Shown piece after piece: positions 30,833 to 46,072 of a stretch of DNA of 64,000 nt. A program made the position numbers and the translations under genes. The DNA is taken from NCBI RefSeq assembly GCF_009914755.1, contig NC_060940.1; one strand, given 5' to 3'. Below the pieces are notes generated by a model that saw only the letters and a list, made by a program, of their open reading frames with translations, was not told where the DNA came from and searched no databases. How positions within the stretch are numbered: the first letter of the stretch is position 1; each line of letters begins with the position of its first letter. This stretch comes from the human T2T-CHM13v2.0 reference genome, Homo sapiens.

Positions 30833-30863
30833 ATGGGAAATGTTTGTAGTTGCTGCCTCAGAG
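30833..30863 (+). CDS. FAM153: FAM153-like coding exon 1 ([10 protein letters not shown], phase 1)
   Basis: ATG in good context (ACAATGG); donor AG|GTATGT. Confidence 0.75.
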
Positions 30864-31093
30864 GTATGTATGTTCATTTCCATCTTCTGACCACAATTTC
30901 TTCAGATGTGCCAGTTTTTCTGTATGTTAAATGTCATTCTGATTATTTTTTTATTTTCCCAGCTCCTATTTGTCCACAGATTTCTAAATATGTTTTAGAG
31001 TTTTATTACTCAATTTGTATTTTTTAATTCTTCTATCAAGATTTTTGCCTCAAGTGATTTTTTTCTAGAAAAACGCACTGTTTCCAATGCCAA

Positions 31094-31677
31094 TTTTTTT
31101 TTTGGACAGTCTTGCTCTGTTGCCTAGGCTAGAGTGCAGTGGTGTGATGTCGGTTCACAGCAACCTCCACCTCCCAGGTTTAAGCAATTCTGCTGCCTCA
31201 GCCTACTGAGTAGCTGGGATTACAGGCATCCACCACCATGCCTGGCTAATTTTTGTATGTTTAGTAGATACAGGGGTTCACCATGTTGGCGAAGGAGGTC
31301 TTGAACTCCTTACCTCCTGATCCACCTGCCTTGGACTCCCAAAATGATGGGATTACAGGCATGAGCCACAGTACTTGGACATTTTATTTTTTTGGCAGAG
31401 TCTCGTTCTGTCACCCAGGCTGGAATGCAGTGGCATGATCTCAGCTCTCTGCAACCTCTGCATCCTAGGTTCAAGCAGTTCTCTTGCCTCAGCCACCCAA
31501 GTAACTGGGACTATGGGTGCCTGCCACCATGCCTGTCTAATTTTTGTATTTTTAGTAGAGACAGGGTTTCACCATATCATCATATTGACCAGGCTGGTCT
31601 CAAACTCCTGACCTTGTGATCTGCCAGCCTTGGCCTCCCAAAGTGCTGAGATACAGGGGTGAGCCACCACACTTGGC
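31094..31677 (-). mobile_element. Two tandem Alu elements (31094-31378, 31382-31677)
   Basis: Two reverse-oriented Alu dimers. Confidence 0.9.
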
Positions 31678-32993
31678 ATTTTTCCCCCACATTCTTTCAT
31701 AGACTAGATACAGAAGAAACCACTGAAAAACAAACTGGGGTGCCACATTTTCAGTTAATTCCCATTAATTGCTTGTTCAGAATGTTTCAGTTGAAGGGAA
31801 GTTGATTCTTGGCACAGCCATCAAGTGGTAGTTAGTTTGGAATGTCCTACATTCCAAATTAACTTGGGGGCCAAGCAGAACTTGGTCCCTTGGTGTGGTC
31901 AGTTGATCATGGAGGAGTGCTCACTGCCAGACAGCAGACAATACAGGGTGCTGGGTAGGATGACCAGACATTTGAATTTGTTCCTCAGAGAGGCTTCATT
32001 TGCAGGAAAGTGCCACATTTTAGCACTGGAGTTAAAATGTAGAGACAGGAGTTTTGTTTTGTTAAATGATTTGAGTTTTTTTCTGGAGTCACCACCTCTT
32101 TAATACACCAACCTTCCCGAAAGGCCCTTGGTGCAGGAGGATTGAGAAAGGGAGAGGAAAGAGCTCCAGGTTCAGGGTCCAGGCCATGATTTAGAGGCCT
32201 CAGATGTTCAGGGATCTCTGTCTCCAGAAAACCAACCAAATTCTTGTCCCAGATCTATCATTCATCAGTGTTGTGACTCTAGGCAGGTCACTTCAATTCT
32301 CTTCATTTCACTTCCCTGAACCATCAACTCTTGAGTGGCAGCCCCTGCTCTGCCTATCTTTCTGGGGTGATGTGGGCATCACAGGAAATTTGAATAGAAC
32401 TTTTTCACGAGTTCTAAAGCATGAGATCCATGTCAAGAATGAAGCTAATTTTACCCTCCACTGCCCTGGAGTCTCCCAGTGGCTTCTCTATTAATCACTA
32501 CCAAGGGCCTGGCTTATTCTTCCAGATGTGAAATAACTGAACACTTTATGGTACTTAGGAAGCACCGATCTTAAGGCTTTAGGTCCATTTAACTATTTTT
32601 ACCCTTTTAACATAACGTAGGCCATTATCAACATTTCCACATTCAGACTAGGGATTAGAGGCACAGTGGAGTCTGTAGAACTTCCTCAGGTTCTAGCAGC
32701 TTCTCAAAAGTCCTTGAGCTCAGATCCTATGCACCAGACCATATGCTCTTGGTCACTCCAATCTACTACCTGTCTGTAATGTCTCATCTCAATACAGGCA
32801 TTTGCCTGCACAGTTATAAGTGCAACCCATAGTGCAGGTTCATTCTGAAGCCCAACTCAGATTCAGGGGGCTTTGCTCTGCAGATGATGAACAATGGGAT
32901 CAAACATTTAAGCTGTGAATAAATAATTACTCATTTCTCTGATCTTTTGCAGCAAGATATCAACAGTTGTCTTTATTTTAGTTCATTTCCCAG

Positions 32994-33128
32994 CATATTC
33001 TGTTGAAGATCAAAGAGTGGATCCTGGGGTGCCAGGGGAATCCACCGTCTGCCACCACAAGTGTAAGAAGTGAATCCTCCATCACTGGCTTCACAGCTGT
33101 GTACACTCTAGAGTTGCATCAACAGAAG
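32994..33128 (+). pseudogene. FAM153: FAM153-like exon 2, disabled (TGA at 33071-33073; expected donor position reads TT instead of GT)
   Basis: AYSVEDQRVDPGVPGESTVCHHKCKK*ILHHWLHSCVHSRVASTE versus recalled FAM153B VCCGEDEIVYPRMPGESTVCHREREKPITYHW...RVASME. Confidence 0.8.
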
Positions 33129-33469
33129 TTATCTTGGAAATTCAGTCATTCAGTTCATTCATGATATGATTTCTAGATTCTTCAGTGTCTCATATTTCAG
33201 ACAATTATAAAATTGCAATGCTATATTCTTTATATCGTGTACATATGTAAATGTGTTAAGTCAATTACTAGTGCTACAACTACAGGAGTAAAGGTGTATT
33301 TCCATTCCAGGTTTGGGTTTACTTTTAATAGTAAATAACATCTCAGTGCAAATTGTAGATATTTTGCTGATTGTTAAAACATTAACTAAGAAGGATCTTT
33401 TTCTGAGACAGTGTTGCCAGATTTGTAAAGCAATGGACATCACTTCAAAATGTTTGGAAGTAACCTAAA

Positions 33470-43800: not shown

Positions 43801-45395
43801 TTTGTGTGAGTTGTGTTTGTCACCATCATTTCTTGCTCTGGTGTTTAAAGATTACATTTTGCAGAGGACCAGATCATTTCTGCCTTTGCCACAGCAAGCA
43901 CCAGAGCCCTGGGTTTTGATGAGGTAGCATTTTTTTGTGAATAGAGATCACAAGATGAGTATGCAGGTGTAAAGTTGAGTGTGGGGTGGGACAGAGCCCC
44001 TTCCAGGTGCTACGTAATCCTGAAGGTAAAGTCCTTCATACATGTGCCAGGAGATGAAAGGAGCCCACTGTCTTTCTCTACACTCTCAGGACCTGCAACA
44101 GCACCTTCCTGTCCTGTCCTCACCATCTGCTCCTGCTCTAAGGGTGCTCCCTGGGTTGGATGACATAGGGAATCATTCCTCTGGAATTCATACGTGTGCC
44201 CCAGCATCCTGGAGTCCTGAGGGCCGAACACATGATTGAGCACATTTTTGGCCTCCACTCCTCACCCAGTCCCATCCAATCCCAAATCCTTGGGCTTTGA
44301 ATGAAACCTAAATTGGTTTTCGTTGGAGAGGCCCGAGTCCAGCTGTAGCTCAAGGCCCTCTGTGGCTGGCAGGAATCCTAGGGGATATATGTGGAGGGGC
44401 TGCTGTGTTGCTGTAGGCAGTGGCTCTCACCGTCTGTGTAGCCTGGTCCCTGGAATCCACTGGGCCCAGGGCAGAGCCTCTGGGCAGCTGGCACGGGGTC
44501 ATTTATCTTGTCACACCCTCCTCTCTGGCCCAGCAGCCTTGTCCTGCTCCCCATACTCCTGTCAGGCCCAGCTTGTTCTCTGTGTCAGGTCTGCCAGGTG
44601 CCCTCCCTCTTAGTCTTCCCACAGCTCAGGCAAACCCTGGGAGGGCCCCCTCATTTCTGTGCTGAAAACTGCTGGCCTCACCTGCAGATTAAGGCAACTG
44701 GGACAAGGGGCTTTACTCTGAATTCTGTTCCATTGTTTCCAAATATTCAGAAGCTGATGGGATTGTTTTGAGGGCTGAATATTTTCCAAGTCTCTAAGGT
44801 CATTCCAGGCATAGAACAGTCACTGTATCTGTGACATCAGCCATCATTGTCTCCCACAGGCCCCAACACAACCCCAAGCCTGTGGGAGGTGCTGCCGACC
44901 CAGGGTGAGATCCGTCGGTTGATTGTAGGCCCTGGAAGTGAAGCCTTGACCTTCTTTCTGATATTCTTCTTTTGGAGAACAGTAGGACTGGTGGAGGTCC
45001 ACATGGAGAAAGGAAATGGGATTCATGAGGGAACAGAAGCAGGCCCTACAGGACGAGGAGGGAGGGAATTCCATGTCATGCACAAGGTTGTGAAGAGGGT
45101 GGCTGCCTCTTGGAGGAACAGAATGATGCGGCTTCCCCTCCCTTGGCTCAGTGATGGTATGTGAGGGCTGGGCAAGTATGTGGGAAGTCAGAGATCCCTC
45201 CCTTATAGCACAGAAGAAATGATACAGGCTGTGGAGAAGGCTCCAGAAATGAGCACATCAGAGGCTCTGGGGTTGGCTCCACAGCCCTGGAACAGCAGGG
45301 TCTGAGTGGTTGTCTCGACTCTAACTCTCCCCTTTCCTTCTTATGGCCACCCCATCACCACTGCTCCTCCAGACACTCTGATGCTTGCTTCACAG

Positions 45396-45433
45396 AATTG
45401 GAAGACTCCACCATTACAGGCGGCCACCAGCAG
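45396..45433 (+). CDS. FAM153: FAM153-like exon 9 ([13 protein letters not shown])
   Basis: Acceptor TTCACAG|, donor |GTAATT; matches recalled [13 protein letters not shown]. Confidence 0.85.
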
Positions 45434-45850
45434 GTAATTGATCTCCTCTTATATGCTCTCTCTCTTTTATCCTCTTTCTGACTCATGAGCTCCTTTTTTA
45501 GCTCTGGTCCTTTTCCTCTTTCCCTCTCTTCTGATTGTTCTCCTGAAGAACCTGGTCTCATCCCACAGTTGAGGTTCTTGGGTCTTCAGTGTCAATAAAA
45601 TCCTCTCCAGCCCTCCTGCCCACTGCCTTGGCATTGCCCTGTTCACTGGCCCCCAGGTTGCAGCTTTCAATCTTGCTGAACAACACTTCAGGGTCCAGGG
45701 AGGGGACTGGGCTGGGGTCAGAAGAGCTGGACCCCACCCTGCTGGAGGGACCCCCAGTAACATCTGGTCTGCTCTGGGCACCCCCTTAACAGATAGAACT
45801 TTTCTTGCACTGGCGTCTCTGGACATGCACAATTGTTCTCTTTCTCACAG

Positions 45851-45918
45851 ATGTCAGCAAGTCCTTCCTCTGCACCTGCAGAAGAAGCAACAGAAAAGAC
45901 AAAAGTGGAAGCGGAAGT
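45851..45918 (+). CDS. FAM153: FAM153-like exon 10 ([23 protein letters not shown])
   Basis: Acceptor TTCTCACAG|, donor |GTGAGG; near-identical to the recalled FAM153A peptide. Confidence 0.87.
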
Positions 45919-46011
45919 GTGAGGGGAAGTGGAAGCAGGCAGAATGATGAGGGAAGCACAGACATGCCCATGTTCTTCATGGCTACACTCACATTCTTGT
46001 TGTCCCATCAG

Positions 46012-46072
46012 GAAAACCAGGAAGCCCAGGAAGAATGTCCTGAACTGTTGGGACATTTTTAGTTTATTTTAG
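46012..46072 (+). CDS. FAM153: FAM153-like last coding exon ([19 protein letters not shown])
   Basis: Acceptor CCCATCAG|; TAG at 46070-46072 at the homologous position (recalled ...NVLKCWDIFNIF*); donor AAG|GTAAGT at 46084/46085. Confidence 0.83.

What the first reader, a model, noticed from the sequence alone, without database searches (positions are those of the whole stretch)
30833..46072. Hidden intact 159-aa FAM153-like ORF at the edge of an alpha-satellite array, restored by skipping its only broken exon
Seen: exon 2 (32994-33128) carries the only in-frame stop, lacks a GT at its expected donor, and is phase-symmetric (1-1). Joining the other ten exons (31+59+25+71+31+71+25+38+68+61 = 480 nt) gives an unbroken frame: [159 protein letters not shown]. 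It is absent from the ORF track because the exons are tiny. The adjacent CEP192 exons are full of stops and frameshifts, yet these ten clearly diverged exons have none. Inference: possibly an unannotated or mis-annotated protein-coding paralogue. Caveats: weak donors at 36091 (GTACAT) and 38186 (GC); the ORF is short enough that chance survival is possible; further 3' introns could trigger nonsense-mediated decay.
Basis: partly seen in the sequence, partly recalled or inferred. Interest (0 to 1): 0.8.

Follow-up and report, generated by a model that had tools for sequence, protein, structure and literature searches.

The report
FAM153DP pseudogene with surviving parental frame
The 159-codon reading frame is really there and is the old FAM153 coding frame, but the locus is an already annotated duplicated pseudogene whose damage matches neutral decay, so it is most likely ordinary.

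Summary
Joining the ten stated exons gives 480 nt, 159 codons and a stop. Exon 2 (32994-33128) has one in-frame stop (33071-33073) and TT where its donor should be.

These exons match, border for border, those of three chr5 paralogues. The chr5 joins give intact 355-, 355- and 221-aa frames ending at the homologous stop. Single exons hit Pfam FAM153.

The coding interpretation is weak:
- The locus is already annotated as the transcribed pseudogene FAM153DP (hub table).
- On the chr16 lineage, two of the 20 parental splice sites lost their GT. Two new AG acceptors, both used by the RefSeq model, break the frame, and that model encodes only 66 aa.
- Expected neutral damage over the 11 parental exons is about 1 stop, 1.2 frameshifts and 1.4 splice-dinucleotide hits. 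Observed: 1, 0 and 2.
- The chance that the ten chosen exons stay open under neutrality is about 0.19.
- A 99.2 % identical inverted copy 1.4 Mb away keeps the frame, with two nonsynonymous differences.

New detail: the annotated short exon 2 (donor at 33063) is in frame and stop-free, so exon skipping is not needed.

Verdict: an ordinary unprocessed pseudogene. Coding remains possible at about 10 %.

The parts
12..22662 (.). Diverged (monomeric-type) alpha-satellite arrays, period 171-172, ending 8.1 kb upstream of exon 1
30797..30863 (+). Exon 1. ATG at 30833, donor GTATGT. The encoded N-terminus begins MG and has a Cys cluster.
   Evidence: Same border and donor as in the chr5 paralogues.
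32994..33128 (+). Ancestral exon 2 (135 nt). In-frame TGA at 33071-33073. The ancestral donor is lost (TT at 33129-33130). The RefSeq short form 32982-33062 uses the GT at 33063 and is in frame and stop-free.
35336..35394 (+). Exon 3 (59 nt), canonical AG/GTAAGT, also in the RefSeq model
36066..36090 (+). Exon 4 (25 nt). Donor GTACAT, against GTACGT in chr5. Not in the RefSeq model.
37958..38114 (+). 157-nt exon of the RefSeq model. Its AG acceptor is specific to chr16 (chr5 has TC there). It shifts the frame and brings the stop that ends the model's 66-aa ORF.
38115..38185 (+). Exon 5 (71 nt). Donor changed from GT to GC (GCAAAG, against GTAAAG in every chr5 unit). Not in the RefSeq model. 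Hits Pfam FAM153 at 26.7 bits.
38624..38654 (+). Exon 6 (31 nt), canonical, in the RefSeq model
40306..40376 (+). Exon 7 (71 nt), canonical, in the RefSeq model. 93 % identical to chr5, flanks included.
40841..40865 (+). Exon 8 (25 nt), canonical, in the RefSeq model
45396..45433 (+). Exon 9 (38 nt) with the ancestral acceptor. A chr16-specific new AG at 45371-45372 gives the 61-nt form 45373-45433 that RefSeq uses, which shifts the frame.
45851..45918 (+). Exon 10 (68 nt). Hits Pfam FAM153 at 31.8 bits. RefSeq keeps the next 93-nt intron unspliced; if it is retained, a stop follows at once.
46012..46072 (+). Exon 11 (61 nt up to the stop). The stop is homologous to that of the chr5 genes. It is 33 nt shorter than in chr5, in frame.
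51180..53467 (+). CEP192-derived exons used as the 3' part of the RefSeq transcript. They are shared by all five FAM153 loci and are long decayed.

Best explanation
This is FAM153DP, an unprocessed (intron-containing) pseudogene copy of the FAM153 duplicon: FAM153 coding exons followed by an old CEP192 fragment. It lies in the pericentromeric duplications of chr16p11.2. It split from the chr5q35 FAM153 genes at about 7 % neutral divergence, and was later duplicated again in inverted orientation 1.4 Mb away.

On the chr16 lineage:
- exon 2 gained a stop and lost its donor;
- exon 5's donor became GC;
- new AG acceptors arose before 37958 and 45373.

As a result, the transcript that is modelled is a non-coding FAM153-CEP192 chimeric RNA. 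The 159-codon frame is the parental frame. In ten of the eleven exons it has simply not yet been hit.

Shown here: the homology, the lesions and the neutral expectation. Inferred: that no minor isoform is translated.
For: 1. Border-for-border homology of all 11 exons with three chr5 loci. Their joins give intact 355-, 355- and 221-aa frames with the same start and stop.

2. Lesions at the 20 parental splice sites (40 dinucleotide positions):
- the exon 2 donor changed from GT to TT, with GT ancestral in chr5, chr10 and chr2 copies;
- the exon 5 donor changed from GT to GC, against GT in 7 of 7 chr5 units listed;
- exon 2 carries a TGA.

3. Both frame-breaking acceptors of the RefSeq model are chr16-specific gains. 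That model reads 66 aa and then a stop.

4. Neutral bookkeeping:
- noncoding divergence is 1100/15317 = 7.18 %, with 70 gaps, 84 % of them not a multiple of 3;
- half of that on the chr16 lineage agrees with the polarised flanks, 34/966 = 3.5 %;
- P(open) for 17 substitutions is 0.47; my arithmetic gives P(no frameshift) of about 0.40, so the joint chance is about 0.19;
- over all 11 exons (615 nt) about 1.0 stop, 1.2 frameshifts and 1.4 splice-dinucleotide hits are expected; 1, 0 and 2 are seen.

5. Polarised exon 1 + exon 2 changes on the chr16 lineage are 7/158, against 34/966 in the flanks.

6. The two chr16 copies differ at 2 of 480 ORF positions, both nonsynonymous. Over the whole duplicon they differ at 230 of 36893.
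Against: - The parental frame, start codon and stop are intact over 480 nt in both chr16 copies.
- No frameshifting indel lies in the ten exons, and the only length difference is in frame.
- All 10 acceptors, and 8 of the 9 donors the join needs, still start with canonical dinucleotides.
- Several joins keep the frame open at 154-186 aa, including ones with the annotated exon 2 form.
- dN/dS against chr5 is 0.70. This is a pairwise value over both lineages and is not significant.
- Exons 9-11 are less diverged than their flanks: 4/163 against 122/2278 non-CpG sites, p = 0.14.
- The chr5 locus that I take from memory to be FAM153CP also has an open frame. This shows that an open frame does not settle status either way.
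- The RefSeq model is a prediction. No RNA data could be examined here.
Confidence: 0.75

Rival explanations
1. A minor isoform of one or both chr16 copies uses the ancestral exons, with exon 2 either skipped or in its short in-frame form. It is translated into a 159-186-aa acidic FAM153-type protein with an MG-plus-cysteines N-terminus. The gene would then be mis-annotated as a pseudogene.
For: - The frame is open in both copies.
- In-frame alternatives of 154, 182 and 186 aa exist.
- A at -3 and G at +4 flank the ATG, and there is no upstream ATG in the annotated 5' UTR.
- Exon translations hit Pfam FAM153.
- The N-terminal residues fit the N-myristoylation pattern G-x-x-x-[STAGCN]. This pattern is recalled, not tested.
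Against: - Exon 5 would need a GC donor lacking the +5 G. From general knowledge, such donors normally need a strong remaining consensus.
- Exon 4's donor is weakened.
- A chr16-specific upstream AG competes at exon 9, and another creates a frame-breaking exon. Both are used in the RefSeq model.
- There is no sign of constraint on the chr16 lineage.
- No paper mentions FAM153DP.
Confidence: 0.1
2. The locus matters as RNA, not as protein. The transcribed FAM153DP-CEP192 chimeric transcript would act as a long non-coding RNA, and the open frame would be irrelevant.
For: - The hub table labels it a transcribed pseudogene, with a 15-exon model that runs into CEP192-derived exons.
- That 3' part is kept at about 95 % identity between chr16 and chr5, against about 91 % for the locus as a whole.
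Against: - No Rfam family matches in 22000-60000 (0 matches).
- No functional test or expression data could be seen.
- The identity difference is small and was not tested for significance.
Confidence: 0.1

Closest known systems
FAM153A / FAM153B on chr5q35. In the tool these are unnamed loci at C5:178.27-178.30 Mb (minus strand) and C5:176.63-176.66 Mb (plus strand). The gene names are assigned from memory of their map positions.
   Same: - Same exon borders, phases, start and stop.
- About 91 % identity over the whole duplicon, including at least 2.4 kb upstream and the CEP192-derived tail.
- Same Pfam family.
   Different: - The chr5 genes have 19 coding exons, with extra 71+25/31-nt repeat units and an 80-nt exon type. 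Their frames are intact at 355 aa, including a 144-nt exon 2.
- The window has 11 exons. Exon 2 is broken, two donors have lost GT, there are two new competing acceptors, and the last coding exon is 33 nt shorter.
The chr5 locus at C5:178.58-178.60 Mb, presumed from memory to be FAM153CP, a family member named as a pseudogene
   Same: It is a short version of the family: 11 homologous exons and a 221-aa open join. It shows that an open homology join coexists with pseudogene status in this family.
   Different: It keeps exon 2 and all canonical donors. Its repeat-unit content also differs, with the 80-nt exon type in place of exon 7.
NPIP / morpheus family of chr16 duplications (recalled from the literature; no paper was read here)
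   Same: A primate duplicon gene family whose exons diverge faster than its introns. Here exons 1-3 differ at 19.3 % of non-CpG sites, against 5.7 % in flanking introns.
   Different: Here synonymous and nonsynonymous proportions are raised alike (0.23 and 0.22), not dN far above dS. The excess maps mainly to the chr5 lineage, not to the window's copy. There is no sequence relation between the two families.

Membership tests
FAM153 (Pfam PF15722) | Match to the family profile at or above the gathering score (27 bits) | tested here: met
   4 single-exon translations scanned. Exon 10 (22 aa) scores 31.8 bits, E 1.8e-7. Exon 5 (23 aa) scores 26.7 bits, just under the cut-off. Exon 7 and chr5 exon 2 gave no hit. 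The whole joined protein was not scanned, because joined sequences are not handed to tools.
FAM153 gene family (chr5q35 paralogues) | Exon-by-exon homology with the same borders, phases, start and stop | tested here: met
   11 of 11 exons have chr5 homologues with the same borders. The chr5 joins are open.
Functional protein-coding FAM153 paralogue | Parental coding sequence intact over all exons | tested here: not met
   Exon 2 has a TGA at 33071-33073.
Functional protein-coding FAM153 paralogue | Canonical splice sites kept at all parental junctions, without competing new sites | tested here: not met
   The exon 2 donor is TT and the exon 5 donor is GC. New AGs before 37958 and 45373 are used in the RefSeq model.
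Functional protein-coding FAM153 paralogue | Purifying selection on the chr16 lineage | tested here: inconclusive
   - Pairwise dN/dS is 0.70, covering both lineages.
- Polarised chr16-lineage exon rate is 7/158, against 34/966 in the flanks, with 11 ambiguous sites.
- The two chr16 copies differ by 2 nonsynonymous and 0 synonymous changes.
- No primate orthologues were available.
Functional protein-coding FAM153 paralogue | Transcript and translation evidence for the open isoform | not testable with these tools
   No RNA-seq, Ribo-seq or proteomics data are held. The only model (hub table) gives 66 aa.
Unprocessed (duplicated) transcribed pseudogene | Introns retained, part of a segmental duplication, and disabling lesions relative to the parent | tested here: met
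   'Transcribed' rests on the hub annotation only.

The most novel reading that the evidence does not exclude
The two near-identical chr16p11.2 FAM153DP copies keep a compact, ancestral-type 11-exon FAM153 architecture. In some tissue they would splice the ancestral exons, with exon 2 skipped or in its short in-frame form. This would make a 159-186-aa, N-terminally acylated, acidic FAM153-type protein that annotation has missed: a lineage-restricted coding gene next to a centromere.
Probability: 0.1. Interest if true: 0.5.

Novelty: already known. Interest (0 to 1): 0.2.

Why it matters
If the frame were translated, it would add a lineage-restricted protein-coding gene in a pericentromeric duplication that became fully readable only with the T2T assembly. 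FAM153 proteins have no known function, so a short ancestral-type copy could help define the core of the family.

As it stands, the result is a worked example. An open homology-guided frame of about 160 codons in a roughly 7 %-diverged duplicate is expected about one time in five under neutrality, and splice-site bookkeeping is more telling than the frame itself.

The by-product may be of more interest than the pseudogene. Exons 1-3 of the FAM153 duplicon diverge about three times faster than their introns, at synonymous and nonsynonymous sites alike.

Tried and rejected
- **CpG decay** as the cause of the excess exon divergence: rejected. Non-CpG sites alone give 39/202 against 132/2298, p = 4e-10.
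- **A 9-nt deletion in chr16 exon 2**: rejected. The chr10 and chr2 copies share the chr16 length, so chr5 has a 9-nt tandem insertion.
- **Polarising exons 3, 4, 10 and 11** with the older chr5:176.72 Mb and chr2 copies: the exons are too diverged to align reliably, so only exons 1 and 2 were polarised.
- **Contiguous ORFs of 90 aa or more** on either strand in 28000-47500: 9 were listed and none was followed up.
- **Rfam scan** of 22000-60000: 0 matches.
- **Literature searches**:
  - 'FAM153DP': 0 papers.
  - FAM153 with 'segmental duplication': 3 papers.
  - FAM153 with 'positive selection': 7 papers.
  - FAM153C / FAM153CP / NY-REN-7: 45 papers, 15 listed.
  - FAM153A / FAM153B: 102 papers, 30 listed.
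  - By their listings, none is about the family's evolution. One paper (PMC13465055) was searched by passages only and has nothing on paralogues beyond one sentence.
- **Whole-protein Pfam, structure prediction and atlas searches**: not run, because the protein exists only as a join of exons.
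Full report
**1. Observation**

The exons are:
- 30833-30863
- 35336-35394
- 36066-36090
- 38115-38185
- 38624-38654
- 40306-40376
- 40841-40865
- 45396-45433
- 45851-45918
- 46012-46072

Exon 2 (32994-33128) is 135 nt and phase 1-1. It has exactly one in-frame stop (TGA, 33071-33073), and TT stands where its donor should be. 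The two weak donors are as described: GTACAT at 36091 and GCAAAG at 38186. Alpha satellite of period 171-172 fills 12-22662 and ends 8.1 kb before exon 1.

**2. What the exons are**

The window's own assembly can be searched. The locus has one near-identical copy on the same chromosome (about 34.41-34.44 Mb, opposite strand). It also has three copies on chr5, at about 176.63, 178.28 and 178.59 Mb.

All 11 exons, exon 2 included, have chr5 homologues with the same borders and AG/GT sites. Joining the homologous chr5 exons gives intact frames of 355, 355 and 221 aa. These start at the homologous ATG and end at the homologous stop.

Single-exon translations hit Pfam FAM153:
- exon 10: 31.8 bits, above the cut-off of 27;
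- exon 5: 26.7 bits, just below it;
- the other two of the four pieces scanned gave nothing.

I take them to be FAM153B, FAM153A and FAM153CP from memory of their map positions.

Homology with chr5 runs from at least 28389 to about 53740, at about 91 % identity. It thus includes the upstream region and the CEP192-derived exons. That CEP192 piece is present in all five loci at about 95 % identity, but is only about 79-80 % identical to chr18. It was therefore already an old, decayed passenger before chr16 and chr5 split. Exon 51180-51334 does carry frameshifts and stops, but it is not a fair control for the FAM153 exons.

**3. Lesions specific to the chr16 copy**

Comparison with chr5, and with older copies on chr10 and chr2, shows the following:
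- The exon 2 donor GT is ancestral and became TT on chr16.
- The exon 5 donor is GT in all 7 chr5 units listed and GC on chr16.
- The exon 4 donor lost its +5 G.
- The RefSeq model uses an acceptor before 37958. It exists only on chr16; chr5 has TC there.
- The RefSeq model also uses an acceptor before 45373, 23 nt upstream of the ancestral one. It too exists only on chr16; chr5 has GG there.

With those sites, the RefSeq model reads 66 aa from the ATG and stops inside the 157-nt exon.

The annotated exon 2 form ends at 33062, 9 nt before the TGA. It is 81 nt long (69 nt from the ancestral acceptor), in frame and stop-free. With the ancestral exons downstream, it would give 186 or 182 aa without any exon skipping. 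Skipping exons 4 and 5 together also keeps the frame, giving 154 aa.

The 9-nt length difference in exon 2 is an insertion on chr5, not a deletion here.

**4. Is the open frame more than chance?**

*Neutral rates.* Noncoding divergence between the window and one chr5 copy is 1100/15317 = 7.18 %. There are 70 gaps, 84 % of them not a multiple of three. Half of that on the chr16 lineage is 3.6 %. This agrees with the polarised flanks, 34/966 = 3.5 %.

*Chance that the ten exons stay open.* That rate means about 17 substitutions in 480 nt. Simulation keeps start, frame and stop intact in 47 % of trials (22 % for 35 substitutions, 8 % for 60). About 0.92 frameshifting indels are expected, so P(none) is about 0.40 by my arithmetic. 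The joint chance is about 0.19, falling to about 0.03 if all divergence is charged to chr16.

*Expected damage over all 11 parental exons.*

| Lesion type | Expected | Observed |
|---|---|---|
| Stops | about 1.0 | 1 |
| Frameshifts | about 1.2 | 0 |
| Splice-dinucleotide hits | about 1.4 | 2 |

*Other measures.*
- Pairwise dN/dS against chr5 is 0.70 (dN 0.127, dS 0.181). It mixes both lineages.
- The two chr16 copies are 99.2 % identical over 36.9 kb. They differ at two ORF positions, both nonsynonymous.

None of this shows constraint. The one broken exon was also excluded after the fact.

**5. Side finding: fast-evolving 5' exons**

Exons 1-3 are far more diverged from chr5 than their own flanking introns: 39/202 against 132/2298 non-CpG sites, p = 4e-10.
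- Synonymous and nonsynonymous proportions are raised alike, at 0.23 and 0.22.
- Polarising exons 1 and 2 with chr10 and older chr5 copies puts 18 changes on the chr5 lineage, 7 on chr16, and leaves 11 ambiguous. The window's copy looks the slower, more ancestral one.
- Older paralogues on chr10, chr2 and chr5 show the same excess of exon over intron divergence.
- Exons 9-11 tend the other way: 4/163 against 122/2278, not significant.

I have no tested explanation. No paper on the family's evolution turned up (listings only).

**6. Verdict**

The locus is the already annotated FAM153DP: an unprocessed pseudogene copy in a pericentromeric duplication, present twice. Its surviving 159-codon frame is real and parental, but it lies within neutral expectation. 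The splice sites needed to express it have decayed or been out-competed.

A translated minor isoform is not excluded, at about 10 %. Settling it needs RNA, ribosome, peptide and primate data that these tools do not hold.

**Limits**
- No primate genomes and no expression data were available.
- The joined protein could not be given to the family, structure or atlas tools.
- Genome letters ran short, so only short outgroup pieces were fetched.
- Gene names for the chr5 loci, the acylation motif and the NPIP comparison are recalled, not tested.

Noticed in passing
window 30833-35394 (exons 1-3), against L008-L011 (chr5:176.62-176.66 Mb): Exons 1-3 of the FAM153 duplicon differ from chr5 at 19.3 % of non-CpG sites, against 5.7 % in the flanking introns (p = 4e-10). 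Synonymous and nonsynonymous sites are raised alike. The excess maps mostly to the chr5 lineage. Older copies on chr10, chr2 and chr5 show the same excess of exon over intron divergence.
   Followed up: partly
own genome C16:34405001-34445000 (L020-L023), against window 20372-57243: A second, inverted copy of the whole FAM153DP duplicon lies 1.4 Mb away. It includes part of the alpha satellite, and is 99.2 % identical over 36.9 kb. It has the same splice lesions and an open ten-exon frame with two amino-acid differences.
   Followed up: partly
own genome C5:176712204-176729067 (minus strand); also C10:38.12 Mb, C10:43.44 Mb, C2:131.84 Mb and C5:181.24 Mb: Older paralogues of the duplicon (about 70-75 % identity) exist. 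The chr10, chr2 and chr5:176.72 Mb copies were aligned at exon 1 and have an ATG-GG(A/G) start followed by Cys codons. The chr5:181.24 Mb copy matched only other parts and was not aligned. The chr5:176.72 Mb copy has the full layout, from exon 1 through FAM153-like exons to the CEP192-like tail. I did not identify what genes, if any, these are.
   Followed up: partly
window 20003-20387, against chr5 loci just upstream of their exon 1 block: A roughly 385-bp stretch from inside the window's satellite-rich zone matches each chr5 FAM153 locus at about 83 % identity. The match sits immediately 5' of the point where homology with 30184 onward begins. It may be a shared common repeat or a trace of the duplication's origin. 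Not resolved.
   Followed up: no
window 46036 (exon 11): The chr5 genes carry 33 extra in-frame bases here, which look like a tandem repeat of the basic K/R-rich stretch. Which lineage changed could not be polarised.
   Followed up: partly
window 26095-26471: A 34-bp minisatellite, 11 copies at 63 % matches, lies between the alpha satellite and the gene.
   Followed up: no
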